A stretch of DNA of 28,529 nucleotides from a virus (lineage: Duplodnaviria; Caudoviricetes): positions 1-28,529 of IMG/VR virus record IMGVR_UViG_3300037751_000192; one strand, given 5' to 3'. Made by a program: the position numbers and the translations under genes. Shown here one piece after another: positions 317-28,529 of this stretch. Position 1 is the stretch's first letter. Each line of letters begins with the position of its first letter. Under the pieces are notes generated by a model. It saw only the letters and a list, made by a program, of their open reading frames with translations, searched no databases and had not been told where the DNA came from.

Positions 317-1348
317 TCAAACCCCCTTAATCTGGAAACCGTCCTTCCAGCCTTTGTCTATGCCTTCTGAAACAATTTGAGCGATTGGAACAGGATAACA
401 CCTGTAATCTCTACCAAGCATGTACACCGGCCTTGAACAGATATGATAATCAAGATTTTCAACTGTCGGTGCAGAGGCCAGAGAAATCTCCCGGCCCTCT
501 TTGGTTATCATGTACAGGCAGTAGATGTTGCTTTGCTCTGATTTAACAGACTGCACAGGGCAATATTCTGAAAATTTGTTCAGAAACGCCTTGTGGAGTT
601 CGGAAAGAAAAAGCGTTTTTTCGCCCTTATTTCCCCAATTATGAAACATGGTTCTAATTCTGAGCATCCCGTACAGGTGCTTTGTTTCGTCATAAAAATC
701 TTTGATGAAATCAAGTTCATCAAGGCTTTGAATGGAAAACATCATGCAGGCTGCTTTCAGCCCGGCCTTGTCCATGTTGTCCAGGGTCTTAAGCTTCTTG
801 TTGTAGATTTCCTCAGAATAATTCTTCGGATGTTGAAAGCTCATGGCAAAACGGTACTGCTTAGTATTCAGCGTTACAAACGCCTCATTCATGGTCCGTT
901 TGAAAAACTTCTCGTCCGAAAGCGTTATCATGTTCGTGATTGTTGAAGGGTTCCACCCAAGCCGGTATGCCTGTTCGACAAAATCAACATAATCAGGTCT
1001 GATTGTTGGTTCACCGCCTGAAAACATGAACGAGAAACCCTTGTATGGTTCTCGCAAAAGCTGGTCATAAAACATCAGATCGTGCATTTTTTCCTTGCCC
1101 TCAACATAGTAACACCAGGGGCATTTCATATTGCACCGGTCTGATATGTGAATGATGATCGAATTTGTTTTACCCATCGTCCCGGGTTGATAAAAATTCG
1201 ACACGTGCTGAAAATCAGGGTCAACCAAAGCCTCAAAACTTCCATGAACGTCGCATTCTTTTTCCATCCAGGCTTGGCCGTTTCTGTAAACGATATATGC
1301 CGGCACCTTCTTATAACAGACATTGCAAAGTGACATGGTTTCTATCAT
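317..1348 (-). CDS. Radical SAM protein with N-terminal CxxC...CxxHG metal-binding domain
   Basis: CNMKCPWC (CxxxCxxC) and SGGEPT motifs. N-terminal SLCNVC...MEKECDVHG. Confidence 0.85.
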   Translation of the reverse strand: MIETMSLCNVCYKKVPAYIVYRNGQAWMEKECDVHGSFEALVDPDFQHVSNFYQPGTMGKTNSIIIHISDRCNMKCPWCYYVEGKEKMHDLMFYDQLLREPYKGFSFMFSGGEPTIRPDYVDFVEQAYRLGWNPSTITNMITLSDEKFFKRTMNEAFVTLNTKQYRFAMSFQHPKNYSEEIYNKKLKTLDNMDKAGLKAACMMFSIQSLDELDFIKDFYDETKHLYGMLRIRTMFHNWGNKGEKTLFLSELHKAFLNKFSEYCPVQSVKSEQSNIYCLYMITKEGREISLASAPTVENLDYHICSRPVYMLGRDYRCYPVPIAQIVSEGIDKGWKDGFQIKGV

Positions 1349-5551: not shown

Positions 5552-5961
5552 CTTTCAACGATAAGCTGAAGGGTTAACTTCAGAGAAACGCCCATGTTGT
5601 CACCTACCAGCCATGCCCCTGTTCTCGGAAGCATGATTTCCTTGTACGCTCCCCCGAAAAGCGGGGTAATCGGATTATCTGCCGAGATGGACATATTTAC
5701 TCCTGCGCTACCAAGCAAGTCAGCCTTTATAGTCGTGTTGTCGTTATACAGGTAGACATCAAACAGCGTGGTAGGCGTGTCGTCCTCGTCGGCCATGACG
5801 TATGCCTCTTTCAGCTTACCCTCAATATATGGGAGTTGCTGAAGAACATCGCCGGAGGCATCAGAAACAACGGTGAACTCGTAAAGCCTGGTTGAAGTAA
5901 CCCGGCTTCTTGATAAAACTTTTTTATTGTTAAATGTGGCTGTAACAGTTCCAGTTGCCAT
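5548..5961 (-). CDS. Hypothetical phage protein (structural operon)
   Basis: 137-aa ORF with a G-rich RBS, coupled to neighbours. Confidence 0.6.
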   Translation of the reverse strand: MATGTVTATFNNKKVLSRSRVTSTRLYEFTVVSDASGDVLQQLPYIEGKLKEAYVMADEDDTPTTLFDVYLYNDNTTIKADLLGSAGVNMSISADNPITPLFGGAYKEIMLPRTGAWLVGDNMGVSLKLTLQLIVER

Positions 5962-7006
5962 TTCCCCCCCTTATGGGTGTGTTAAATAATCCAAGCCACG
6001 TAATAGCCATCATGGCAGTTGTCCCGATATGAAACGGAAAATTAACAAGTGAGTTAACCAAAATTATAACCCCGGCAATTAATGCTATGCTTTCGGCTTT
6101 CCAAAAATATGAACACACAAACCCAAGAATTAACATTGGCGTCTTTATACCCATCTCAAACCATGATTGAAAAACGTCGTTATGCAAATATCCCCACTGG
6201 GTGTCTAATAATGGAAAAACTGTCTTGAAATTCCCCAACCCGCACCCAAACCTTGGATGTTGTCTGGTTATATTCCACCCTTCGGCCCATGCTTGTAACC
6301 TCGCAGAAGAGCCGGGCTGGTCTATATATTTTAGATAAATCAACCCACAGAACCCAACCAAAAGCAACCAAACCGTTTTTTGATTTCCCCTGATTAGTGC
6401 CCACACAATAACACCACTTGAAACCGCCAAAACTCCACCAAAGGTCTTGGCCATTATAAGCCCTAAAGCGGTTATCAGACTACCCATGATAATTAACGGC
6501 TTTGTTCTTAAAAAGGCTGGGAAACAAAAAGCCACGACCGCAGATGCCAAATTCTGGTTGCCCATATTACCTATCGGTGATCCGTTTTCCCCGCCATGAA
6601 GAATAAGTGTCCACCAACTGGTTATTTCTGGCTTTATATACGTCTGGATTGCCAAAAGACCAACAACGCAAGCCGAAACGACACACAAACAGTCCATTAT
6701 TATGTTTTTATCCGGCTTGGTTTTCGCCAAAAGCATATAATAAAGAACCCCGTACAATATCCATTGATAAGACAAGAACGCTTCCATCGTATATGCCGGA
6801 TAATGAAGAGATATCAGCGCGCTTACGTTGAATAACGATACCCATTTGTTTATTTTCCATAAATAGAAAGACAAACAGATAGATACCGCCGAACAAAACA
6901 GAACAATAAACAAAACCCTGTAATTGTTAGTCGGCACTCTGACCAGGCTTGCCAGAAGGAGGGCGGCCCCAAAGACCGCCCCCCATTTTTTACTGGATTG
7001 ACTCAT
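5930..7006 (-). CDS. O-antigen ligase/Wzy_C-family polytopic membrane protein
   Basis: Many hydrophobic segments plus the motifs GNQN, R...W......HP.FG.GLGNF and HND..Q...E.G. Start placed at ATG 7006 (ORF track start 7024). Confidence 0.75.
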   Translation of the reverse strand: MSQSSKKWGAVFGAALLLASLVRVPTNNYRVLFIVLFCSAVSICLSFYLWKINKWVSLFNVSALISLHYPAYTMEAFLSYQWILYGVLYYMLLAKTKPDKNIIMDCLCVVSACVVGLLAIQTYIKPEITSWWTLILHGGENGSPIGNMGNQNLASAVVAFCFPAFLRTKPLIIMGSLITALGLIMAKTFGGVLAVSSGVIVWALIRGNQKTVWLLLVGFCGLIYLKYIDQPGSSARLQAWAEGWNITRQHPRFGCGLGNFKTVFPLLDTQWGYLHNDVFQSWFEMGIKTPMLILGFVCSYFWKAESIALIAGVIILVNSLVNFPFHIGTTAMMAITWLGLFNTPIRGGNGNWNCYSHI

Positions 7007-7712
7007 AACAAAATTTCGCCCCAATCATCTCAAGATCACCAGTGCCGTCCGCGACATCATCTCGCCACAAGCCGAATGTTATCCAATCGCTTGATGTTAA
7101 TGCCGCAAAGTCCGTTGTCACAGACATGGTAATTTCATCCGGCGTGGACGTAGTCCCTGCCAAGGCAACGGGAGTTTGGTCGGTTGCCGCAGAATCAGAG
7201 GCTGTGCCATCAGAATTTAGATAAACCGAAAAGTCAACCTCGTTAGGCGTGGTAGAGTCGCTCTCCTTGAACAATCCATAAAAAGTTCCACCACTTGAAT
7301 AATCATCCGGTATCGGAAAGGTAATATCTGCCGGAGTTGTTTCACCATCTGCCCACACAATCCCCGGAACAAGATCATCTACCTCGATGCCTGGGGCCGT
7401 GGCGTTAGTTACCGGGACACCGTTTGTGATAAAAGATGCCAGTGGCAGGTTGACACATCTCGTGGTATCAGCAATCTCCCCGGCAGAAACATCCCCGGTT
7501 GGAAGAGTAACAGCACCGTCAAACCTGGCAGCGCCGTCAACCTCCAAGGTCCCGCTGATAAACATATCGTCTACGCCTGGGGTTACATCCGCAGTATCGG
7601 TTCTGTCGCCTACCCACAGACTGTCAAGATGGGTGATAGTTCCAGGCTTGGCCGCAAAAGCATTCCCGGACAATGCCGCAACAAGTACCAGACAAAGAAG
7701 GATCTTTTTCAT
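6990..7712 (-). CDS. Acidic protein with Sec-type signal peptide, structural operon
   Basis: MKKILLCLVLVAALSGNAFA-A (basic, hydrophobic, AxA). GGAGG RBS. Confidence 0.7.
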   Translation of the reverse strand: MKKILLCLVLVAALSGNAFAAKPGTITHLDSLWVGDRTDTADVTPGVDDMFISGTLEVDGAARFDGAVTLPTGDVSAGEIADTTRCVNLPLASFITNGVPVTNATAPGIEVDDLVPGIVWADGETTPADITFPIPDDYSSGGTFYGLFKESDSTTPNEVDFSVYLNSDGTASDSAATDQTPVALAGTTSTPDEITMSVTTDFAALTSSDWITFGLWRDDVADGTGDLEMIGAKFCYESIQ

Positions 7713-10020: not shown

Positions 10021-10797
10021 CTATTCTCCTTGCGCCCAATACTCTTTAGCGTATGTTTCTTTTTTCAGTTCCCGGCCTTGCACCTTGAATTTTGAGGCCA
10101 ACCGATCATATGCACCTTTGGCATCGGCCGGCAAGTCGTTGAAAGTTTTCTCCGTCGTCTTTTTCCCGCCTGCTCTTGATCCCCCCTCCACATCTCCAGG
10201 CTTGTCCCGGTTCGGGTTGGTAAACTTGTGCGGAAACTGTTTTTTCGTCCTGGCCGTCATTTCCTCAGCCAATTTTGCCGGAGTAATCCCAGGGGTTTCG
10301 TGGACGATCTTGTGGCTAATAAAGTCGGCATAGTCGGCAAGGTCCTGGTCCTCTTGATACCATGGATTTTTTTCTTTCCATTCGGTGAAATGAGGCGGTT
10401 CCTGATTGACAGGTTTCGGCTCAGCCGGAGGCTTAATCGACTGCCGCTCTTTCTTGACCTCTTTGTATGCTTCGGTGTCGCCAACCTCGACCGCTTCAGC
10501 CTCTTTTCTGTCCAGTGCGGCCAGCTTGGATTCGTACTCCTGTTTGGCTCGATCGTATGACTCTTTCCGGACCTGCTCAAGCTCAGCCTTGGTCAGCTTA
10601 ACCGCCATATCCAGGTCTTTTTCCAGCTTGCTGACCTTGTCCCGCATTATTGGAATGATATTTTCCCCTCGCAAAACAAACTCTTTCGCAGGCCGCCACT
10701 TATCCGGGTCGCCTTTCCAATCTTCCTGGGGTACATGGCCCATCTTGGCCGCTTCTTCCTCGTAATTTCTTTCTTCGCTCATGTCATCATCCCTCAA
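10021..10797 (-). CDS. Putative scaffolding protein
   Basis: Highly charged and coiled-coil-like, with E.EA..MG..P...W.G....W..A.EF and W...NPWY. Lies between portal and capsid. Alternative start at 10782. Confidence 0.65.
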   Translation of the reverse strand: MRDDDMSEERNYEEEAAKMGHVPQEDWKGDPDKWRPAKEFVLRGENIIPIMRDKVSKLEKDLDMAVKLTKAELEQVRKESYDRAKQEYESKLAALDRKEAEAVEVGDTEAYKEVKKERQSIKPPAEPKPVNQEPPHFTEWKEKNPWYQEDQDLADYADFISHKIVHETPGITPAKLAEEMTARTKKQFPHKFTNPNRDKPGDVEGGSRAGGKKTTEKTFNDLPADAKGAYDRLASKFKVQGRELKKETYAKEYWAQGE

Positions 10798-11095
10798 TTA
10801 CTGCGCCGATCTCTTTGTCCGAAATCAGCCTGTAATCTTCGCCGTCCTGTCCTTTAACCGTTGCCCCTGCGTATTTGTCGAAAAGGATTTTGTCGCCAAC
10901 CTTGGGGTAATCCAGCCAGTTAGGGTCAGTAAAACAGATTGACCCAATGGCGATTATATCCCCGCGCTCCTTGGCGTACTTTTCCTTTTCCTTGGCGGAG
11001 TCGGGGATATAAAGCCCACCAGCCGTCTGTGCTTCAACTGCTTCTGGCTTCACCAGTACCTTGTACTCAACCGGTCTTATTCCTGACTTGTTCAT
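10787..11095 (-). CDS. groES: Co-chaperonin GroES (phage-encoded)
   Basis: IRP....VLVK....E..TAGGLYIPDSAKEK...G.IIAIG...KVGDKILF.KYAG..V...G.DY.LI...EI.AVIE matches Cpn10 throughout. Confidence 0.92.
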   Translation of the reverse strand: MNKSGIRPVEYKVLVKPEAVEAQTAGGLYIPDSAKEKEKYAKERGDIIAIGSICFTDPNWLDYPKVGDKILFDKYAGATVKGQDGEDYRLISDKEIGAVIEG

Positions 11096-13370: not shown

Positions 13371-13622
13371 TTAAGCCTGGTCATATTTGCTCTGCATCTC
13401 GCTGTCTGTCAGCATCTCGTATCCTTCGGGGGCTTTGATCAGCCAGTCCCCATGACCGAGTTTTACCACTCGCCCGGCGCCGTATATGATGATTTTTTTG
13501 TTTGTTGCCTGGATGTCTATCCGCTCTGCCGTGTCCGCAAAACTCACTATCTCCGCCGTGTTGCTCCCTGTCCATTGCACGGCGTCAAAGGTTGCAAGAT
13601 GTTTTTGTTTGATTTTCATCAA
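13371..13622 (-). CDS. Hypothetical phage protein
   Basis: AVQWTG.N..EI..F...GDWLIK motif seen in small phage proteins. 4-bp overlap with the terminase C-terminal ORF. Confidence 0.6.
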   Translation of the reverse strand: MMKIKQKHLATFDAVQWTGSNTAEIVSFADTAERIDIQATNKKIIIYGAGRVVKLGHGDWLIKAPEGYEMLTDSEMQSKYDQA

Positions 13623-14371
13623 TACCCTGTATCCTCGTTGCGCTCGACTTTGCCGTAACCGTTGCCGCCCGCATCCATTGCGATGTCGCGCGATGTCGCC
13701 AATGGCATCCCAGAAACAATCAGGTACCGCATGCAGTCCATCAGATGATCATTGTCTTTGACAACCTTGCCGTTTTCGTCCCTGCGATAGAGTCTCAGCT
13801 CCTCCAACACAGCAGCGAGACTGCGGAAAATCTTAAGCCGCCCCGACACCATCCGCCTGTAAACGGCGTGTATGCCTGACTCAACTGCGTTATCAGCCAA
13901 ATCCAGAGACAACCCCATATTGACGTACTCGTCGTACAATTTAACGCCGTCTTTTTGGCTACGCCCACTTGCTGCCGGATCAATTACGCCAGGTATCCAT
14001 GCCCCCCTGCTCTTAATTGCATCAACATGAGTCGCAGGCTCTGCCATCCCCTGCTTATAGCAGGAGTACAGATACACCGTATCACTCTGCCTATCCCATG
14101 CACCCCAAAGTGCAGCTGTGTTGTTCCAGCCCACATCCATTCCAAAAGCGCACGGCCAAAACTCCGGCACCTCAACGTCATCGCAGACAATCCGCTCCTC
14201 TGCTATCGGGTAGATGGCCCCGGCTCCGAGTTGCGGAATCCCTTTGGCCCGTGCGTCCCGCTGATACGGAGGAATAGAGTCCCAAAGCTCCTGTTTTTGC
14301 GCTGTGGTCAGGTGGGGGCAGTCATCCCACGTAGCGGTTGTGACATATTTTGTTGCGCTCACAACTGGCAA
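13619..14371 (-). CDS. Terminase large subunit, C-terminal (nuclease) part
   Basis: TWDD.PHL, R.AR.KGIP..G.G.IYP, GMDVGW, IDPA and DHLMD..RY acidic RNase H-like motifs. AAGGAG lies upstream of the TTG start. Confidence 0.85.
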   Translation of the reverse strand: MPVVSATKYVTTATWDDCPHLTTAQKQELWDSIPPYQRDARAKGIPQLGAGAIYPIAEERIVCDDVEVPEFWPCAFGMDVGWNNTAALWGAWDRQSDTVYLYSCYKQGMAEPATHVDAIKSRGAWIPGVIDPAASGRSQKDGVKLYDEYVNMGLSLDLADNAVESGIHAVYRRMVSGRLKIFRSLAAVLEELRLYRRDENGKVVKDNDHLMDCMRYLIVSGMPLATSRDIAMDAGGNGYGKVERNEDTGY

Positions 14372-14440
14372 AACCGCTCCTTTCCGCCTAACATACAGCC
14401 CCGGAAATTTTGGACACTTTTGTTGAAATCATTAGATAAA

Positions 14441-15175
14441 TTATACTTCATTTTGCCTAACGCTTTGGGGTATTTTCCCATTGCTCAAAAATGTTTTAAC
14501 GACCTCAGATATCCCCAACAGCGGGGTGAACGTCAAAATCATCAGCCCGTCCGTGGTCATCGTCCTCATTAGACACTCGCTCCATATTGACAGGTCCGGC
14601 TCCTCGTCCAACCATATGACATGCTTCGCCGTGCCCTGAAAGGATTTGCGTTTCTGGTCATACGATTTCAGCCCCAGGCTTGACTTGCCGCCCGACACAT
14701 GCTTGATTGTCGCGCTCTGAATGGCATCCGGGACCCCGTTCCGCCGTGTTGTATCTATGATTGAGTCTGCTGGAATCAACCCCGTGCCCATCTCGCCAAT
14801 CTGCCCGAACAACTCTAACTGTATGATATCCCTGACTGTCTCGCTCGTATCTCCTGCCGCCCACACGCTGACCGGCCCCGTAAACCTGCGCCCCTGCCAC
14901 CACTGCGGATACCGGCCTGTGAGATGGCAGACAACCTCATACCCGCCGGCAATAGTTTTCCCGACACGGTTCGCGGCCATGAACAGCCGCTCCCGGTAGT
15001 GCGCCCCGGCGGCGAAATGTTCAGTATGTTTCCCGTACAGCTCCCGCCGCAGCGGCCCGTCATCCGGAAACAAGCTGTCAATCTTCCGCCCTCGCTCCCG
15101 CCGCCGCAACTCACTGAGGATCTCTACTGCGCGCTGCATCTGCGAGTAGCTGAGAGAGCTGAGATCGTAACTCAT
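14441..15175 (-). CDS. Terminase large subunit, N-terminal (ATPase) part
   Basis: Walker A AANRVGKT, Walker B IWLDEEP and coupling motif TFTP. Start placed at ATG 15175. Confidence 0.88.
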   Translation of the reverse strand: MSYDLSSLSYSQMQRAVEILSELRRRERGRKIDSLFPDDGPLRRELYGKHTEHFAAGAHYRERLFMAANRVGKTIAGGYEVVCHLTGRYPQWWQGRRFTGPVSVWAAGDTSETVRDIIQLELFGQIGEMGTGLIPADSIIDTTRRNGVPDAIQSATIKHVSGGKSSLGLKSYDQKRKSFQGTAKHVIWLDEEPDLSIWSECLMRTMTTDGLMILTFTPLLGISEVVKTFLSNGKIPQSVRQNEV

Positions 15176-15758
15176 GCTCGTCGCGTTTTGTGATGTCATC
15201 TATCTCCACATGTTGCCGATCCCCGTAGTCGCCGGGGTCTGTTACCTTTGCTAACCACCTATAATGATTAGCCAACTCGCGCGCCTTGGTGATTTCCGCC
15301 GGCGTAGCATCCGGCAGTAGTGCGTTGATAGCGTCTAAGGCCGCCCGTGCATACTCCTGAGCCAACAGCCGCCGGGTTTCGCGCGCGCGATGAATCCGAG
15401 CTGGATCTGCAACGAGCCACGCATGCAGCGTATCACTCCCGACCCCGCATTTTTTGGCGGTCTGCTTGTGTGTCGCCCCGTCGCTGATAATCCGGCATAT
15501 CTCATCTATCCCGATATTGTCGAGGGTCTCGCCCGGTGTGCGCGTAGTACTCGTTGTATCGTTCCGGGTAGTCGCGCCTGATTTTATCAACGAGTTGGCT
15601 GTATCTGTGATAGTAGCTGAGGATTTGCCCTGGGTAGCAATCGACTTGTTGCGCGAGGGCTTGGAGTTTGTCTTTGTCGTGAACGGCTTGGACGAGCAGC
15701 GGGACGGGGATTTGACGGAGCCTTTGCTCTCTGGTTTTTTTTTGGGTTGCCCGGCCAT
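15111..15758 (-). CDS. Terminase small subunit (Sf6 gp1-like)
   Basis: IC..I..G......A...GV...TL..WL HTH, RARE and RW.A....P..YGD. Start placed at ATG 15758. Confidence 0.75.
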   Translation of the reverse strand: MAGQPKKKPESKGSVKSPSRCSSKPFTTKTNSKPSRNKSIATQGKSSATITDTANSLIKSGATTRNDTTSTTRTPGETLDNIGIDEICRIISDGATHKQTAKKCGVGSDTLHAWLVADPARIHRARETRRLLAQEYARAALDAINALLPDATPAEITKARELANHYRWLAKVTDPGDYGDRQHVEIDDITKRDEHELRSQLSQLLADAARSRDPQ

Positions 15759-20718: not shown

Positions 20719-22499
20719 CGTGGCATATACCTCTCTGGAAATGTTGTCGGGCTCGTGACATATTGCTGGCTTGCGGCTAAAAACCAGAGCCGAACCCGGG
20801 GCTCATCCTCCCCCTCTCGCTGTTTAGTGCAGAAACAAGCTCCATCCGGCTCTCCGTTCTTATCTTTCTTCCCTTCTTTCTTCGCTGCCTCTTTTGCCTT
20901 GTTCCGCCACCAAACCAGGCAATTGTCTGGTAAATCTGTTATCGACCCAGACCCCTTAACGTCCATCTTCCCGCCAGACTTGTTCTCATCTGACGACTTC
21001 CGCATGTGGGCCACAAGAATAACATGGACATCCGCATCCTTTGCAAAAGCCATGAGCTTGTTTATAAATTCCGCCTGCTTGTTGTAATCGTCCATACTGA
21101 TATTCAATTTTGAGAGATTGTCGATCACAAAAAGAGTAATCCCGTACTTCCTGCGGGCGTAATCGAATATGGATAAAATTTTCTCCGCAGATGCCACCCC
21201 GCAATAATCGTAAATCCAGAGCTTGTTCCCCAGCCACTCATGCGCTTGCCGGATCTCAATTATCGGCGGCTCTGCCTGGCAAGTGCCTTGACGTACCAAT
21301 CTTTTCAGGAGTTTTCTCGGCCTAAACTCCAAACTAGCAAGACATGCCTTTTCACCGTGCGCCATTGCCGCCAATGTTATCTGGCCCACACCCTGACTTT
21401 TACCATGTCCGTTTGTCCCGGCAAGGATTGTCACTTCACCAGGGCGAAACCTAAAATCAATCCCAGGCCACGGCATTTCAAAGCCTGTCACCCATCCTTC
21501 TGGGGGATAAAACTCTTTGATTACCTCGTCGCAATAATCCGAGCTGTTTCTTAATTCCTCAGGGTCCAGGCTCTTTGCGGCCTCAACTTTTATCCTAAAA
21601 TCAAAAACATCCATCCCTGCTTTCAACGCTTCGTTTGCGTCTTTGTGGCCCAACTCGATAACCTTGCACCGATGGCGCCCCAATCTTTCCGCAATATCGT
21701 TTGCGGCTTTCTTGCCCTCTTGGTCTGCGTCCAGACAAAGATATATCGTGTCGAACCGCTGGAGCCGATCATACTCGTTTTCTATCCAGGCATGTTTTGC
21801 TCCTTCGCCGCCACCAAAGGGAATTGAAAGGGCATCCATACCCATTTCCTTCACTGACATAGCATCAATCTCGCCCTCGGTGATGCAGACCGTTCTTGCT
21901 TTTGGGTCAACCGCCTGCCAGCCAAACAAACACGGCATCTGATTTGGCGATGTTGGTCGAATATCTTTCTTTCCGTTAACTCTTTCAAGTTTCAACCGTT
22001 TGATCATCTTCGGCTTGTCGTCATGGATGAAAGGAAAAACAATACAATCCCCACCATCCCCGATTTTAAACGCCACAATGGTATCCATCGACAATCCACG
22101 ATCTAGGAGATATTTTGTGACTGGGGTTTCATCCTTCGGAGTCCTGCATGAAATCATGGCCGGGTCGTCATAATTAGCCCGGCTGTTGGCAAAGGTCGCA
22201 TCATCCACTTGGATTTTCAGCAGCTTGCAAGCGCCCTGCATGGCCGCGGTTAATCCACACTGCTTAGCAGCCATCCAGAGGTCCAGTAGGTCCCCACCTT
22301 CTCCGCTGGCAAAATCGCACCACACCCCAGCTTTTGTCCCGGTAAGCCTGATTCCAAGCGACTGCCCTTCTTCCCCGTCGATAGAGCCTACCCGCCACTC
22401 GTGGCCGGACTGCTTTCCGTCAGGGTATAAGTACTCAGCGACAAAAGGGGCGTTCTCTGCCAGCACTTCGGCTATATGGGAAGGGGTCAATTTGCCCAC
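20715..22499 (-). CDS. Primase-helicase (Toprim + DnaB-like, T7 gp4/Twinkle type)
   Basis: ITEGEIDAMS, DAD..G and KDANE (Toprim). G..G.GKS, FVIDNL, LVAH.RK and VKGSG.I (SF4 helicase). Confidence 0.92.
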   Translation of the reverse strand: MGKLTPSHIAEVLAENAPFVAEYLYPDGKQSGHEWRVGSIDGEEGQSLGIRLTGTKAGVWCDFASGEGGDLLDLWMAAKQCGLTAAMQGACKLLKIQVDDATFANSRANYDDPAMISCRTPKDETPVTKYLLDRGLSMDTIVAFKIGDGGDCIVFPFIHDDKPKMIKRLKLERVNGKKDIRPTSPNQMPCLFGWQAVDPKARTVCITEGEIDAMSVKEMGMDALSIPFGGGEGAKHAWIENEYDRLQRFDTIYLCLDADQEGKKAANDIAERLGRHRCKVIELGHKDANEALKAGMDVFDFRIKVEAAKSLDPEELRNSSDYCDEVIKEFYPPEGWVTGFEMPWPGIDFRFRPGEVTILAGTNGHGKSQGVGQITLAAMAHGEKACLASLEFRPRKLLKRLVRQGTCQAEPPIIEIRQAHEWLGNKLWIYDYCGVASAEKILSIFDYARRKYGITLFVIDNLSKLNISMDDYNKQAEFINKLMAFAKDADVHVILVAHMRKSSDENKSGGKMDVKGSGSITDLPDNCLVWWRNKAKEAAKKEGKKDKNGEPDGACFCTKQREGEDEPRVRLWFLAASQQYVTSPTTFPERYMPR

Positions 22500-23317
22500 C
22501 CTTTCCCCGTAATAAACGAGTTCTCTTCCTCCCCCTGTGTTTCTTGAAGAAAACTATCCACATGCTTGCAATCCCGGCATATCAACTCAATGTCGTTGTA
22601 TTTGGTTTTTCTGTCGTTTTTCCCCATGTGGTGTTCCGATTTCCGGCATCCGTCAATAGCTTCTTTGAGTTGATCAACCGTGTAGTCTTTTAGCCTTGCC
22701 CGGATTTTTGATATTCTTTCTGGGCTTGCCTTTGCCTTTTCTGTGCCCATTACTTTTTGCCAGTGCCGGAAAACTTCCATCACCGAATCGTCGGGCGTGC
22801 TCGACAAGTCTTTTTTCTTTTCTTCTTTTGGAGAAGGAGAAGGAGCAGGAGCAGGAGCAGGGCTTATACGATTCGTTAACGATCGTTTAACGTCCGTTAA
22901 TAAATCGTACTCTTTTTTGGTGATTGACGTTCGTCCCTCGTTAATAAGCCTACCGTATAACTCCTTGTTAATTTTGGCTAACCGCGAGAACCTTGCCTTG
23001 TCTCCTCGGTTGTCAGCCCCAGCCGCCCAAGGATTATGTTCCGCCCATCCATGAAGGCGAAAACCATCTTCATTTTCTTCCAGCCAGCCCAAATCAACGA
23101 CCAGTTTCACAAAAAAACCGTTCTCTCCTGTCCACCTAGCAGCGATTTCAATATCTTCAGAATCCAACCCTATAAAATGCCCACACGGTTTATTTTGAGC
23201 CGCCCACAGCCATAGTATTTGAAGGCTTTTCACGGCATTAAGACCACCACGGCGTTCAAGTTTTACCGTTTTAGGATGATCCCAAAAATCAACGGCTATT
23301 CGGATGTCGGTATTCAT
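22487..23317 (-). CDS. Putative replication initiator
   Basis: N-terminal F..HPK...L / LW.WA domain, PAPAPAPSPSP linker and C-terminal VF..W...R..KI.ARL...AI.G domain. Directly upstream of the primase-helicase. Confidence 0.65.
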   Translation of the reverse strand: MNTDIRIAVDFWDHPKTVKLERRGGLNAVKSLQILWLWAAQNKPCGHFIGLDSEDIEIAARWTGENGFFVKLVVDLGWLEENEDGFRLHGWAEHNPWAAGADNRGDKARFSRLAKINKELYGRLINEGRTSITKKEYDLLTDVKRSLTNRISPAPAPAPSPSPKEEKKKDLSSTPDDSVMEVFRHWQKVMGTEKAKASPERISKIRARLKDYTVDQLKEAIDGCRKSEHHMGKNDRKTKYNDIELICRDCKHVDSFLQETQGEEENSFITGKGWAN

Positions 23318-23543
23318 TGAGCCCGGCCATTTATATAATCGTGCAAGCCATCATAAACAGCAAAAGCCCAGCCATAAGCACGCTTGAGGAGTGACACCCC
23401 GAAAGGGTAGGGCGGCAATCTGGTTTCTAAAACCATCGCAGTTATGGCCAGGCTTTTGATTTTTAGTGGGTACAAAATAAAAGGCTCCCTTTCTTTTGTG
23501 CTGTTGGGCTTCTCATTCCCAAAAGCATTAGGTGATTTTTTTT

Positions 23544-23572
23544 ATCCTATGTCGACACCCTCTAAATGTCAA
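23544..23572 (-). promoter_or_regulatory. Sigma70-type promoter for the replication operon
   Basis: Minus strand TTGACA-N17-TAGGAT. Confidence 0.6.
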
Positions 23573-23695
23573 CCGATTTTCGGTGTCAATGGGGGAAAAA
23601 CCACCGGTTAATTATTATAAAATATAACCATTGGTGGGTAGACAAAAAAAAATAAAACTCTACTCCCAGCCTAATATGGCAATCATCAACAGATT

Positions 23696-23932
23696 TTACT
23701 TTTTCATCGTCAACGACTGCAAATATTCCACTTGTTTTCGGACAACACTGTCTTTATAAAGTGCATATTGTACTATGGCTGGATACTTGAGCCACGAATG
23801 GGCATCCTGGCACACTTTATTAACATAAGCAAATGCGGGCGAGGTGTTGGTGCAATTTGGCCAATCAAGACATTGCTCTGCCGCCAGCCGATAACACGCA
23901 GCCGGTGGTTTTTTTGTTGGTAAATAGCCCAC
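23696..23932 (-). CDS. Hypothetical protein
   Basis: 78-aa ORF with no recognisable motif and a weak start. Confidence 0.3.
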   Translation of the reverse strand: MGYLPTKKPPAACYRLAAEQCLDWPNCTNTSPAFAYVNKVCQDAHSWLKYPAIVQYALYKDSVVRKQVEYLQSLTMKK

Positions 23933-24067
23933 TTTGGGGGTTGTAGCTATACAAAGACTTCAGCTTTTTCTGAGTTAATAATTGCCGCATTGCTATTCCT
24001 TTGTTTTAATCATTACCGAATATAGTCAGTCAAAAAAAGGCAAAAAAAATATTTAGGAAATTTTTCC

Positions 24068-24086
24068 CGATAATCATATGTTACCC
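24068..24086 (+). mobile_element. attI-like integron recombination site (array start)
   Basis: CGATAAT-CATAT-GTTACCC: an L-like box, 5-bp spacer and GTT core, after an A-tract region with no attC hairpin. The core is the reverse complement of the first attC start. Confidence 0.65.
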
Positions 24087-24440
24087 TGCCAGGGGAATCT
24101 TGTAATAGGCTCGGCAGGCTTCTTCAATCAGTGCCGCCCGGCTTTCTGGGCGGTTATCCATCCAGGTCAAAAGATCGGGCGGCAACAAAACAGACACGGC
24201 AACCTTTTTCTTTTCTTCCGGCAACTCCGGGCGGCCAGCGCCAGGGCGACGGCCGCCGCGCTGGGGTATGTTTTTTATGGCCCCGGCATTACCAACCACA
24301 CGGATTCCGCTGGCCAATTCGATCAAGCATCCCTTAAACAGGCCATCATCTCCGACGTATTCGCCAAGCGATTTGGCCCCTTCGGGGAGCGGTGACGCCC
24401 CCCAGTAAATGTTTTTGGCTTTTTCAGGGGTCATAATCAC
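24081..24440 (-). CDS. Cassette 1 gene B: C-terminal ribbon-helix-helix/antitoxin-like DNA-binding domain
   Basis: RGGRRPGAGRP...KVAVSVLLPPDLL.W......SRAALIEEA. Its TAA stop lies inside the GTTACCC core. Confidence 0.65.
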   Translation of the reverse strand: MIMTPEKAKNIYWGASPLPEGAKSLGEYVGDDGLFKGCLIELASGIRVVGNAGAIKNIPQRGGRRPGAGRPELPEEKKKVAVSVLLPPDLLTWMDNRPESRAALIEEACRAYYKIPLAG

Positions 24441-24640
24441 GCCCCCCTGTACATTGGGTTGCGGTGCTCTACCACCGTAGCCCCAGCAGCCTTAGCCTTA
24501 ACGAGGCCAGCTTCAAATTGTTCGGTCGGGTAAACACCAGCCTTACCGACAATCGACACCGTACCGGCGGTGTATTCGATAAAATTTTGAACTTGCCCGG
24601 TTGCCAAGGTCACTGTGATTTCGCGCTTCCAAGTTTCCAT
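24437..24640 (-). CDS. Cassette 1 gene A: hypothetical protein
   Basis: 67 aa, GAGGAG RBS, 4-bp overlap with gene B. Confidence 0.65.
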   Translation of the reverse strand: METWKREITVTLATGQVQNFIEYTAGTVSIVGKAGVYPTEQFEAGLVKAKAAGATVVEHRNPMYRGA

Positions 24641-24684
24641 TTTCTTTCTCCTCGGTTGTGGGCTTCTGCCCTTTTGTTGATTTA

Positions 24685-24713
24685 ATCATATCACTATATC
24701 AACCGAGTTACAA
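24685..24713 (-). promoter_or_regulatory. Internal promoter of cassette 1
   Basis: Minus strand TTGTAA-N17-TATGAT with an extended -10 TG. Confidence 0.6.
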
Positions 24714-24767
24714 TAGAAAAAATGATATTGGTTAATCTTTTTTTGTTCTGCAAAACCTGGCCGGCCA

Positions 24768-24856
24768 GGGTAACAAAACGGCCCAGCGGACCGGGGCAAG
24801 CGCCGCGTTGTTTCTGCCAGGTCACAGGTCCGGTCCGCTGGCCTCAATCGTTAGCC
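24768..24856 (+). mobile_element. attC site 1 (89 bp)
   Basis: GGGTAAC-AAAAC-GGC(C)CAGCGGACCGG...CCGGTCCGCTGGCC-TCAATC-GTTAGCC, with the extra C in the left arm. Confidence 0.92.
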
Positions 24857-25057
24857 TTCCCTCAATCCAAATTCGGTTGCACAATCAAAACAGTATGGTT
24901 TCCCATCCTCATCTTTGTACCCGTCCTCCTCGCAATACCCAGTCGCTTCTCCGCATTTACAGCAAATTTCTCTCGTTCCTGGATAATTATACGAGTTCCA
25001 CGCCTCATGTTCGCTTTGATCCAGCGCGTGACAATATCTACCTGGCCATGTATTCAT
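24851..25057 (-). CDS. Cassette 2 gene: small Cys-rich protein (68 aa)
   Basis: GGAGG RBS 7 nt before ATG 25057. CCKC...C and CFDC motifs. TAA stop inside the GTTAGCC core. Confidence 0.7.
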   Translation of the reverse strand: MNTWPGRYCHALDQSEHEAWNSYNYPGTREICCKCGEATGYCEEDGYKDEDGKPYCFDCATEFGLREG

Positions 25058-25074
25058 GTTCAAACCTCCAATTC

Positions 25075-25165
25075 GGCTAACAAGTCGTCAGAGCGGACGC
25101 CGAGAAGCGCCCCGGCGCTACCGCATTTTAGGTCATCGGCGGTGCCGCTCAACTCTGCGTTGTGC
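25075..25165 (+). mobile_element. attC site 2 (91 bp)
   Basis: GGCTAAC-AAGTC-GTCAGAGCGG(A)CGCCG...CGGTGCCGCTCAAC-TCTGC-GTTGTGC. Confidence 0.9.
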
Positions 25166-25169
25166 AGGC

Positions 25170-25897
25170 TCATACTCCACATTGGCACGGTGGGTATTCA
25201 ATTTCCTCCATGCCAGGCAGGGCAGTCTGCCGCTCGTTAATAATCTGACTCAACCTTTTACCGTTATTCAGCAACGTAAGGTCTTGGTTCCGTATCGTTT
25301 CCGCTCGGTGATGGTAATGTCCTCCAAGGTCTGCGCCGCGCAAAACAGCTCAGGATGCCGCCGCCGGAGTTGACGCCATTGCCCCTGGCGCTGAAACATG
25401 CAGAGGAAACAGCCGCTTTTCATCGGCAGCGGCAATCCGTGTGAGGCAATCACTCTCTTGCACTCCTCCCGGTCGATTCCTTCCTCTATCAGGGGGTATC
25501 TGTTTTCAATGCCTTTCTTGCTGTTCAGCCTTGCACGGTGGGACTCGCCAGCATCGATCCCAAGCAGCATAAAGCACGGCTTTTCAACGTGCTTAAAAAC
25601 TGGCCGGAGCTTAAATTTATCGGTGCAGTCCCGCTTCATCATGCTGGGCACCTTCTTTTTTGCGACGTAGTAATCATAGAGCTTCGCGTACCCCTCAACG
25701 TCCGGCGTCAAAACAGTCACGGGGTTGTGGCCATTATCCTTCAGCCAGGCTTGAAACATTTCAAAATACTCGTAGGTTTCAGGCCAATCCGCGCCATGAT
25801 CCACGAATATGCTTTCGAACTCTAGGCCCCAATCCAAGCACAGGAGATGCAGGGCCACTGAGTTCACGCCGCCGCCAAAAGAAAGATAGTTTTTCAT
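25170..25897 (-). CDS. Cassette 3 gene: PAPS-reductase-like (PP-loop, Fe-S) protein, probably frameshifted near the 3' end
   Basis: SFGGGVNS, CT.KFK, YPLI and KSGCFLC motifs. Start at ATG 25897. The frame stops at 25268, but the -1 frame continues to a stop at 25170. Confidence 0.75.
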
Positions 25898-25913
25898 GAC
25901 TCCACCCCCGCCT

Positions 25914-26002
25914 GCACAACCAAGCGCTTCACTGGAAGCCGGGAAGCGCTGGCATGTTTTCTGGTCGTTCATTGGCGGCTCCAGTGAGCTCAAGCGTTGG
26001 GC
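25914..26002 (+). mobile_element. attC site 3 (89 bp)
   Basis: GCACAAC-CAAGC-GCT(T)CACTGG(A)AGCCG...CGGCTCCAGTGAGC-TCAAGC-GTTGGGC, with two extra bases in the left arm. Confidence 0.93.
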
Positions 26003-26029
26003 GGCGTAGTCTGCAACCGCCCGGTAGCG

Positions 26030-26776
26030 TCAAATATATTTCACAATTGAAAACTTCCCAGTTTCTGAGGTGTATTTTACATCTAGGGATTGGGCTGATA
26101 AATTAATCTTGGTAATCCCAAACAAGCCGCACCTCCGCCTGTAATATTCGGCGGTGGGATTGGTAAAACATATACCGTTCAAGGCTTCAGGCTCAAACGG
26201 CCGCAACTCATCAAGGATTTTGTCCACCGTTACGGTCTGTAATTTTGACCCGGCAAAAGGGGCAAATTCGAGGAACCTAGGAATTGTATTTCGGTGCAGT
26301 ATGGCCTCTTTGTATATACTCTTCACCTCGTGAAGATTACGACTTGTGACAACGACGTTTATCTTTACCAGATCCACATTTTGCGCCATCCATGCGACCT
26401 TATTCCATATCTCCTCTGGAGTAATAAGGGTCTGCCCGGTGAGCACCTGAAATAACTCAGTATCCATGCTATCCAGCGACACATTTATCCTATTTAGCCC
26501 GGCATCGACCAAATCACCATAAAACCGAATGCTGGCCGTGCCATTGGTGGCCATCGACTGATGCATACCCATGAGGGAGGCAAACCTGATGTCTTTTACT
26601 AAATCAGTGCCTCGTAGTGTCGGCTCTCCGCCGGTCCAGTGGAGATGGTCCACCCCATTTTCGTGCAAGGCGGTTATATACTCTCGCAAATTTCCGCTTC
26701 GTTTCACGCCGAAATTAGAGATATCGCAGTACCCGCAAGCGAAATTACAACTCGTTGTTTTTATGCATGTTTTCAT
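26030..26776 (-). CDS. Cassette 4 gene: MoaA-like radical SAM protein
   Basis: CNFACGYC, TGGEPTLR, TNG, RINVSLDS, VKINVVV and RF.EF motifs. No C-terminal auxiliary-cluster cysteines. AGGAGG RBS. Confidence 0.8.
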   Translation of the reverse strand: MKTCIKTTSCNFACGYCDISNFGVKRSGNLREYITALHENGVDHLHWTGGEPTLRGTDLVKDIRFASLMGMHQSMATNGTASIRFYGDLVDAGLNRINVSLDSMDTELFQVLTGQTLITPEEIWNKVAWMAQNVDLVKINVVVTSRNLHEVKSIYKEAILHRNTIPRFLEFAPFAGSKLQTVTVDKILDELRPFEPEALNGICFTNPTAEYYRRRCGLFGITKINLSAQSLDVKYTSETGKFSIVKYI

Positions 26777-26808
26777 ATTGCCTCCTAATCCAAGTTCCGG
26801 GCAAAATC

Positions 26809-26899
26809 GCCCAACAAGCGCATCCCCGCCGTCTGCGTTGATGCGCGGTGGTTTTGGCGAGGCCTTGGTGCCGCCGCTGGTTATGCTGGGTCGTTATGC
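26809..26899 (+). mobile_element. attC site 4 (91 bp, degenerate left arm)
   Basis: GCCCAAC-AAGC-GCATCCCC...GCTGGTTATGC-TGGGTC-GTTATGC. Length and core chaining fit, but L-box pairing is poor. Confidence 0.75.
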
Positions 26900-27109
26900 G
26901 CTCAAAGCCATGTCAACTTTGTGCGCCCTGTTTCTATCTCTTTGCAGTTGAGATAACCCTTTCCCTTTCGCCAGGTAATTAATCAAATCGAGTTTATCGC
27001 TGAATTCATCGCACCGGAGATAAAACACGAACCACAGCCAATCCAGGAAAGATACCCTCCAAAACCTCAAAGCGGGTGTAAGTCTGTTAAAGTGTTCCAT
27101 GTTCATCAC
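26894..27109 (-). CDS. Hypothetical protein
   Basis: 71 aa, GAGGGAG RBS. TAA stop lies in the GTTATGC core of attC 4. Confidence 0.6.
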   Translation of the reverse strand: MMNMEHFNRLTPALRFWRVSFLDWLWFVFYLRCDEFSDKLDLINYLAKGKGLSQLQRDRNRAHKVDMALSA

Positions 27110-27303
27110 TTCTCCCTCTCGCTTTTAACAACAATGGTGAGGTAGTACCTCGCCTTCCTGGTTTGTATCCTGATCCCGTTCCGGCGAGCGAAATTGTGAG
27201 CGGCTATCTGTAGCCTATGCAGGGCAGGCTTCCCCCGGTATGGCATTTTAACCCCCTCGCCAGGACACATATCTAAAAGCATATGGAATTTGCTTTTTTT
27301 CAT
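27106..27303 (-). CDS. Small basic putative DNA-binding protein, probably leaderless
   Basis: ATG 27303 lies 7 nt from the -10 box and has no RBS. The ORF-track TTG start (27339) is the -35 box. Confidence 0.6.
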   Translation of the reverse strand: MKKSKFHMLLDMCPGEGVKMPYRGKPALHRLQIAAHNFARRNGIRIQTRKARYYLTIVVKSEREK

Positions 27304-27309
27304 ACTCGG

Positions 27310-27401
27310 ATCATAATCCATCTGGGGTGTAAATGTCAATCAGGGTTTTTATACATGTATAAAAATATTTTGTTGACATTCCCATTTGCCCGGATTACGA
27401 T
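27310..27401. promoter_or_regulatory. Divergent promoter pair with central palindrome
   Basis: Minus: TTGACA(27339-27334)-N18-TATGAT(27315-27310). Plus: TTGACA(27373-27378)-N17-TACGAT(27396-27401). Perfect 20-bp palindrome TTTTTATACATGTATAAAAA at 27346-27365. Confidence 0.75.
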
Positions 27402-27937: not shown

Positions 27938-28529
27938 ATGCCAACAAAAATAGAACGATTAGTAGATTCGCAAAAAGCCGCTATCCCGGCGTTTGTTAAA
28001 AAATGGATTGAGATAGGGCTAAAAACCGGGGAAACCGACTGGAACACATTTGATAAATATATGCCGATCTGCTACCAAAAGGCAGGGCTACAATACCCGA
28101 AAAAGGTAATAAGGGTGTTGTCTCCAATGGTTGGGGCTTTTGCCGCAGCGATAGCCGAAAGTCTATTGAAACAAAAACGCCCCGATGCCGTGCGCGATGC
28201 CGTGGCCGATGCCGTGGTCGGTGCCGTGCGAGTTGCCGTGCGCGGTGCCGTGGCCGGTGCCGTGCGCGGTGCCGTGGACGATGCCGTGCGCGGTGCCGTG
28301 GACGATGCCGTGGTCGGTGCCGTGGACGATGCCGTGGACGATGCCGTGACCGGTGCCGTGGCCGATGCCGTGGACGGTGCCGTGGCCGGTGCCGTGGCCG
28401 GTGCCGTGCGAGTTGCCGTGGTCGGTGCCGTGGCCGGTGCCGTGGACGATGCCGTGCGCGGTGCCGTGGACGATGCCGTGCGCGGTGCCGTGGCCGGTGC
28501 CGTGGCCGATGCCGTGGACGATGCCGTGC
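27938..28529 (+). CDS. DUF6745-like protein with tetrapeptide repeats (runs off the window edge; not in the ORF track)
   Basis: [31 protein letters not shown]...CYQKAGL..P..VI.V.SP, then (D/G/V)AVx repeats. Frame open to the window end. Confidence 0.7.
28184..28529 (+). repeat. 12-bp coding tandem repeat, about 29 copies, consensus G(A/G/T)T GCC GTG NNN
   Basis: Directly visible. TGCCGTG is invariant at a 12-bp period. Confidence 0.95.

What the first reader, a model, noticed from the sequence alone, without database searches (positions are those of the whole stretch)
24081..27109. Every cassette ORF is inverted relative to attC polarity, with stop codons built into the GTT core
Seen: the extra-helical bases lie in the left arm and the 5-nt/5-6-nt spacer pattern makes + the attC top strand, yet all five cassette ORFs are on the minus strand. 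TAA stops fall inside GTTA cores at 24081, 24851 and 26894. RBS+ATG sit 16-32 bp from the AAC end of the attC in cassettes 2-4. Established: canonical cassettes are mostly co-oriented with the array and read from Pc near attI, and inverted ones usually carry their own promoter. Inference: this is a mirror-image cassette class tailored to phage. Promoterless inverted genes would be read from the phage leftward promoter at 27310-27339, entering from the attI-distal end. Such cassettes would be silent or antisense in a normal host integron but expressed in the phage.
Basis: partly seen in the sequence, partly recalled or inferred. Interest (0 to 1): 0.9.

Follow-up and report, generated by a model that had tools for sequence, protein, structure and literature searches.

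The report
Backwards integron cassettes in a phage
This phage carries four integron-type gene cassettes whose genes all face opposite to the bacterial norm, a layout common in other viral contigs and almost absent from the bacterial arrays sampled, and the genes are likely swapped in by an integron recombinase and likely read from phage promoters.

Summary
Largely confirmed, with corrections. A 28.5-kb partial phage genome holds an attI-like core (24080) and four attC sites whose cores chain perfectly. A model built from bacterial attC scores three sites strongly and the fourth weakly, all on +; all cassette genes lie on minus.

Corrections: four closed cassettes, not five; cassette 1 has its own conserved promoter-like site; the PAPS-reductase gene is frameshifted; no integrase is in the record.

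Mobility: a related contig diverges exactly at the 24080 core, and cassette 1 recurs (93% protein identity) between other attC sites.

Survey: viral cassettes 46 inverted, 10 canonical, 27 undecided of 83; bacterial 2 inverted, 76 canonical, 31 undecided of 109. The viral result depends on the search pattern and the gene-calling method.

Inversion is not a fixed trait of phage cassettes: the PAPS-reductase family occurs inverted (3), canonical (3) and attC-free (14). One cassette has changed its attC body at the 'wrong' core, a possible clue to cassette genesis.

The scan noted this class before on other DNA (40 findings). My seven completed literature searches found phage CALINs, not the inverted layout. 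Expression and recombination are untested.

The parts
24067..24086 (+). attI-like insertion site; crossover core G|TTACCC at 24080, no attC to its left; TAA-6 nt-GTT spacing
   Evidence: a related contig diverges right after 24083; same spacing as the Shewanella attI printed in PMC9892861
24081..24434 (-). cassette 1, second gene (117 aa, unknown; C-terminal half loosely like small ribbon-helix-helix proteins, below naming bar); TAA inside the core
24437..24640 (-). cassette 1, first gene (67 aa, unknown); replaced by an unrelated gene in the relative L399
24685..24713 (-). cassette 1's own promoter-like site (TTGTAA-17-TATGAT, extended -10), conserved in L399
24768..24856 (+). attC A (top strand +); its left arm reads as a terminator-like hairpin on minus (24793-24779)
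   Evidence: 39.4 bits
24851..25057 (-). cassette 2 gene (68 aa, Cys-rich, like small phage zinc-finger proteins); TAA inside the core
   Evidence: feature score 0.94, viral clusters; weak codon score 0.7
25075..25165 (+). attC B (top strand +)
   Evidence: 34.4 bits
25170..25897 (-). cassette 3 gene: phage PAPS-reductase-family protein, frameshifted near 25290 (main frame 25268-25897; C-terminal tail in another frame, to 25170)
   Evidence: phrog_424 E 8e-39
25914..26002 (+). attC C (top strand +), two extra bases in the left arm
   Evidence: 44.4 bits
26030..26776 (-). cassette 4 gene: radical SAM protein (248 aa, MoaA-like but under every cut-off)
   Evidence: PF04055 E 8e-19
26809..26899 (+). 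attC D, left arm degenerate
   Evidence: 10.9 bits; similar contigs in two runs stop matching at 26889-26896
26894..27109 (-). ORF beyond the last attC; TAA in the core; no closing attC, so a backbone gene or a cassette that lost its attC
   Evidence: poor codon score -7 but a 60% viral homolog
27106..27339 (-). small ORF directly behind the leftward promoter (start uncertain)
27310..27339 (-). leftward promoter-like site, 11 of 12 consensus, facing the array from its attI-distal end
27373..27401 (+). divergent rightward promoter-like site, 10 of 12
22487..23572 (-). replication initiator gene with its own promoter-like site (23572-23544), downstream of the array in the phage's leftward direction

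Best explanation
This is a phage-borne array of four integron-type cassettes whose genes lie opposite to their attC sites, likely built by an integron integrase acting in trans and likely read leftwards from phage promoters. Shown: the site anatomy, the polarity, the gene strand, and that relatives differ at the cores. Inferred: an IntI-type enzyme (the host's, or a phage copy since lost or lying outside this partial record) inserts circular cassettes at G|TT 24080 through minus-strand hairpins. The insertion site points against the phage's leftward early operon, so only cassettes with inverted genes would be expressed and kept. The promoter at 27339-27310 would drive two backbone ORFs and cassettes 4, 3 and 2. 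The newest position is farthest from that promoter, and cassette 1 would be read from its own promoter behind the terminator-like arm of attC A. Where a phage holds the insertion site the other way round, the same gene families sit canonically.
For: Core chain 4 of 4. Model hits on +. Polarity rule right in 9 of 9 sites beside bacterial intI and 6 of 6 model hits in three intI loci not used for training. One 151-nt contig (depth 2) matches 23981-24083 and continues with other sequence directly after the core. Cassette 1 recurs in L399 with an attC, not the attI-like flank, at its gene-3' end. Survey: viral 46 inverted, 10 canonical, 27 undecided of 83; bacterial 2, 41, 19 of 62; same-pattern bacterial control 0, 35, 12 of 47. 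In three other phage inverted arrays an IntI-like gene or its remnant sits at the attI end, co-directional with the inverted genes: L251 whole (TIGR02249 204 bits, cut-off 265), L210 and L334 remnants. Three viral pairs share attC body plus inverted gene up to R', as normal bottom-strand exchange predicts. Top- and bottom-strand rules: PMC5027507, passages.
Against: No tyrosine recombinase in the record, so the enzyme is not identified; Xer-type genes flank two other arrays (L047, L032). With the first search pattern viral cassettes were not mostly inverted (4 inverted, 5 canonical, 6 undecided of 15). An ORF-length-only call gave viral 41 canonical, 25 inverted, 18 undecided of 84; the inverted majority appears only with codon scoring. 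Cassette 1 and L399 share only the core-to-core segment and have unrelated attC bodies on the R'' side, which plain bottom-strand exchange does not explain. attC D is damaged and cassette 3 frameshifted, so the array may be decaying. Promoter matches overall are near chance (7 found, 5.1 +/- 2.3 expected).
Confidence: 0.7

Rival explanations
1. A phage-specific system: a different (Xer-type or divergent IntI) recombinase cuts at both cores, or at the core beside the gene's 5' end, so the moving unit is the core-to-core gene segment and attC bodies are re-paired freely.
For: Window cassette 1 and L399 match exactly from core to core and differ on both flanks. The window and L334 PAPS cassettes have the same 7-nt cores but different attC bodies. 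One gene family occurs in both polarities, scattered on the tree. Xer-type genes lie beside arrays L047 and L032.
Against: Three viral pairs keep body and gene together up to R', and contigs matching attC D stop at R'. Site geometry is that of ordinary IntI substrates. IntI-like genes sit at the attI end of three arrays.
Confidence: 0.15
2. A relic: an array captured once (from a host integron or by insertions at a secondary attG site) and now shuffled only by phage homologous recombination at similar cores and leaders, with no site-specific enzyme acting.
For: No integrase; damaged attC D; frameshifted cassette 3; the first gene of cassette 1 was swapped inside the cassette, which needs no integrase. 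attG insertion is described (10.1101/2022.09.11.507474, passages).
Against: All four core pairs are still 7 of 7 complementary; breakpoints fall exactly on cores; cargo is phage-type and bacterial arrays are almost never inverted.
Confidence: 0.12
3. Polarity is mis-assigned: minus is the top strand and the cassettes are ordinary.
For: attC A can be forced onto minus by the simple detector (21.3 against 27.0). Folding energies do not favour the minus strand in B-D.
Against: Model scores 34-44 bits on + against at most 12.3 on minus; calibration on intI loci; no attC left of 24080; natural breakpoints at + strand GTT.
Confidence: 0.03

Closest known systems
CALINs in phage genomes (Qi et al. 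2023, PMC9892861; read: parts 2-4 of 7, covering part of methods, results and conclusion, plus keyword passages; supplements not read)
   Same: Two or more attC sites, no integron integrase nearby, in a phage; small accessory cargo.
   Different: The text describes cassettes 'oriented in the same direction' as typical of bacterial arrays, plus one phage with divergent attC sites; it does not report genes systematically inverted against attC. Its supplementary annotation files, which I did not read, might show such cases. Here there is also an attI-like site with evidence of exchange.
Bacterial integron cassette arrays (attI, attC, IntI, Pc; PMC5027507 and PMC8876359, passages)
   Same: attC anatomy, GTT crossover cores, core complementarity, TAA-6 nt-GTT insertion site.
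   Different: Genes inverted; stop codon in R' rather than R''; no intI; expression would enter from the attI-distal end.
Wrong-orientation insertion by attC top-strand recombination (Nivina et al. 2016, PMC5027507, passages)
   Same: Yields a gene facing against the array.
   Different: There gene and attC flip together (my reading of their scheme); here attC geometry stays with the array and only the gene is reversed.
Cassettes with their own promoter, such as cmlA and toxin-antitoxin cassettes (PMC8876359, passages; that TA cassettes are often inverted is recalled)
   Same: Cassette 1 is a two-gene cassette with its own promoter-like site.
   Different: Those are exceptions in a canonical array; here every cassette is inverted and three leave only 16-32 nt before the start codon.

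Membership tests
attC site | R'' (RYYYAAC-type) and R' (GTTRRRY-type) cores, paired L boxes, unpaired spacers of 5 and 5-6 nt | tested here: met
   A-C. D: right arm intact, left arm degenerate (10.9 bits)
attC site | Extra-helical base in the arm that fixes top and bottom strand | tested here: met
   Left arm on + in A-C; rule calibrated on intI loci
attC site | Recombined by IntI on the bottom strand | not testable with these tools
   needs a strand-delivery assay
Integron cassette | Own R'' complementary to own 5' core | tested here: met
   4 of 4; not met for 26894-27109
Integron cassette | Found in other array positions with breakpoints at cores | tested here: met
   cassette 1 in L399; other sequence at 24080 in run X1
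Canonical (Pc-read) cassette | Gene co-oriented with the attC top strand | tested here: not met
   5 of 5 cassette ORFs on minus
Complete integron | intI beside attI | tested here: not met
   profile and tblastn searches find none in 28,529 bases; the record is partial
attI | L box, 5-nt spacer, R box at the array head, used as the insertion point | tested here: inconclusive
   spacing fits and one low-depth contig diverges there; an attG hot spot is not excluded; the 21-nt motif had no exact match in viral or metagenome contigs
CALIN | At least two attC sites and no nearby integron integrase | tested here: met

The most novel reading that the evidence does not exclude
Phages are cassette factories. 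Ordinary phage accessory genes are repeatedly bracketed by inverted 7-bp cores and paired with attC bodies in either polarity, through rare top-strand exchange at R''. Phages keep a mirror-image pool, read from their own promoters and silent in host integrons, and the same step feeds canonical cassettes to bacteria.
Probability: 0.3. Interest if true: 0.9.

Novelty: new variant of a known kind. Interest (0 to 1): 0.7.

Why it matters
Integron theory rests on strand-selective attC recombination placing genes in line with Pc. A phage pool with the opposite gene polarity means phages use the same recombination hardware for their own gene shuffling, with the expression gradient reversed. How cassettes are first made is, to my knowledge (recalled), still open. 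One gene family seen attC-free, canonical and inverted, and one cassette seen with two unrelated attC bodies, give concrete natural substrates for testing cassette genesis.

Tried and rejected
Rfam scan: 0 hits. Close relatives through the primase: 2 loci at 40-44%, no array. Radical SAM relatives in viral contigs: 5 weak partial hits, not followed; protein search: self plus one 35% hit. Exact attI-like motif: 0 in viral and 0 in metagenome contigs. Sequencing runs: two DNA runs with 5-6% of words; no RNA holder listed; no joints. ORF-length orientation calls were dropped because many 'canonical' viral frames were antisense shadows; the codon score that replaced them was trained on 474 long ORFs from the same loci. 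The simple detector mis-called L201/L344 as + (the model says minus). Folding energy and base skew did not tell the strands apart. A small hairpin near 27120-27170 as a fifth attC: no model hit to E 5, and its core does not complement 26893; rejected. PAPS profile in 401 genomes of one phylum: 2 distant hits, not inspected. Pattern 2 in five single genomes: 0. Atlas searches named no family.
Full report
Context. The window is a whole 28,529-base virus record, a partial tailed-phage genome. Terminase, portal, capsid, methylase, helicase, primase-helicase and a replication initiator all read leftwards. The array lies between the initiator gene and a divergent promoter pair at 27310-27401. Rfam finds nothing. 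No integron integrase or other tyrosine recombinase is present.

The sites. Four attC-type elements follow a bare core at 24080. Each R'' is the exact complement of the core opening its own cassette, 4 of 4. My geometric detector found A, B and C on + (27, 22, 25) and no other site at 17 or more in the window; six resampled windows gave none at 21 or more. D has a damaged left arm. No complement of the 26893 core follows, so there are four cassettes, not five. The ORF 26894-27109 has one viral homolog, without a significant attC. It is either the backbone gene whose stop overlaps the right half of the original insertion site or a cassette that lost its attC; I cannot tell which.

Polarity. A covariance model from 35 bacterial attC scores C 44.4, A 39.4, B 34.4 and D 10.9 bits on +, and at best 12.3 on minus. 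The training sites were found with a recalled pattern, so I calibrated independently. Beside bacterial intI genes the detector gave the canonical layout in 9 of 9 sites in three loci. The model did so in 6 of 6 hits in three loci not used for training. Natural breakpoints agree. A 151-nt contig of run X1 (depth 2, a single record) matches 23981-24083 and continues with other sequence directly after GTTA. Contigs similar to attC D stop matching at 26889-26896, with other sequence after the R' core in X2.

Genes. All cassette ORFs are on minus. Stops fall in the cores at 24081, 24851 and 26894, but not in cassettes 3 and 4. Start codons of cassettes 2-4 lie 17, 16 and 32 nt from R''. Cargo is phage-type: a PAPS-reductase-family gene (frameshifted near 25290; error or decay unknown), a radical SAM gene, a small Cys-rich gene and a two-gene unit. 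Weak 9-of-12 matches inside attC B and the radical SAM gene are at chance level, so internal promoters are not excluded.

Survey. Pattern 1 gave 62 viral and 130 bacterial stretches (the latter scan stopped early, of about 2000). Pattern 2 gave 121 viral stretches (of about 310). Full flanks were fetched for at most 80 loci per scan. Among bounded cassettes, codon scoring called viral 46 inverted, 10 canonical, 27 undecided of 83 (34 loci: 21, 7, 6) and bacterial 2, 41, 19 of 62 (31 loci: 1, 25, 5). Pattern 2 run on 301 genomes of each of two phyla gave 0 inverted, 35 canonical, 12 undecided of 47 sites; of these 19 were bounded (16 canonical, 3 undecided). Keeping only sites whose strand a sequence profile confirmed gave viral 36, 8, 20 and bacterial 1, 40, 19. 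Against my reading: pattern 1 alone gave viral 4, 5, 6 of 15, and ORF length alone gave viral 25 inverted, 41 canonical, 18 undecided of 84. Loci are not independent, so the Fisher p of 1e-12 by locus overstates the certainty.

One family, three states. The PAPS alignment found 25 viral loci; I dropped one duplicate and three fragments. Of 21: inverted cassette 3 (L328, L334, L344), canonical cassette 3 (L332, L333, L346), a lone core 1 (L338), no attC 14. On the tree neither cassette state formed one side of a branch in any of 200 bootstrap trees, and well-supported branches force at least two changes each; 8 of 19 inner branches are open, so the order of events is not shown. Inversion is therefore not intrinsic to phage cassettes.

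Cassette 1 elsewhere. A metagenome scan found 14 loci; L399-L401 show the same sequence around the cassette, with 93% protein identity, so I count them once. The match to the window runs exactly from core to core. On the gene's 3' side L399 has an attC (29.6 bits) instead of the attI-like flank. On the 5' side it has a 58-nt attC (33.3 bits) unrelated to the 89-nt attC A. The first difference is ordinary cassette movement. The second is an exchange at R'', which bottom-strand recombination does not give. Three other viral pairs keep body and gene together up to R'. By my reasoning (inference), one top-strand by bottom-strand attC recombination would join a reversed gene to a canonical body, which offers an integrase-only route between the two polarities; phage recombination at similar cores is an alternative.

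Enzyme. Three viral inverted arrays have an IntI-like gene or remnant at the attI end, in line with the inverted genes (L251, L210, L334). Two arrays have Xer-type genes at the far end (L047, L032). Of nine records searched for PF00589, five had no match or nothing over cut-off; most are incomplete. The simplest reading is an integron platform captured in line with a phage early operon. That turns attI against transcription and would select inverted genes; after intI loss the host enzyme would act in trans. This is inferred.

Known work. Phage CALINs with working attC sites are published (PMC9892861; parts 2-4 of 7 and passages read, supplements not). Strand rules come from PMC5027507, cassette promoters from PMC8876359 and attG sites from 10.1101/2022.09.11.507474 (passages only). 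Seven searches of the open library (listings and abstract starts) showed no paper describing phage arrays with genes systematically inverted against attC; most subscription papers are outside the library. The scan itself lists 40 earlier findings on this theme in other genomes. These are unchecked notes, not support. What this window adds is the both-polarity gene family, the R''-side body exchange and a natural breakpoint at the insertion site.

Verdict. A real, mobile, inverted cassette array; a new variant of a known kind; interest 0.7. Best mechanism 0.7. Expression, enzyme and strand use remain untested.

Noticed in passing
window 13619-15199 (-): The terminase large subunit appears as two ORFs (Terminase_6N and Terminase_6C), possibly split by a stop or frameshift.
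   Followed up: no
window 27938-28529 (+): ORF with a 12-nt tandem repeat (21 in-register copies listed) running off the contig end.
   Followed up: no
window 317-1348 (-), 5930-7024 (-), 10787-11095 (-): A second radical SAM gene, an O-antigen-ligase-like membrane protein and a GroES-like gene among the structural genes.
   Followed up: no
L251 4997-7173: Complete phage integron: IntI-like gene at the attI end, transcribed in the same direction as its inverted cassette genes.
   Followed up: partly
L399 3697-4600: An apparently canonical cassette sits inside an otherwise inverted array.
   Followed up: no
L332 3967-3984: A canonical phage array begins at an attI-like core much like the window's (ATAAT-C-N-TAT-GTT); its record, rated 100% complete, has no PF00589 match.
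   Followed up: partly
L250, L263, L266, L268: In several viral inverted cassettes the best-scoring start codon lies inside the attC loop, so the site would encode the protein's N-terminus.
   Followed up: no
window 23317-24080: A 760-bp AT-rich spacer sits where other phage arrays have intI; no remnant was detected, and its 78-aa ORF scores as non-coding.
   Followed up: partly
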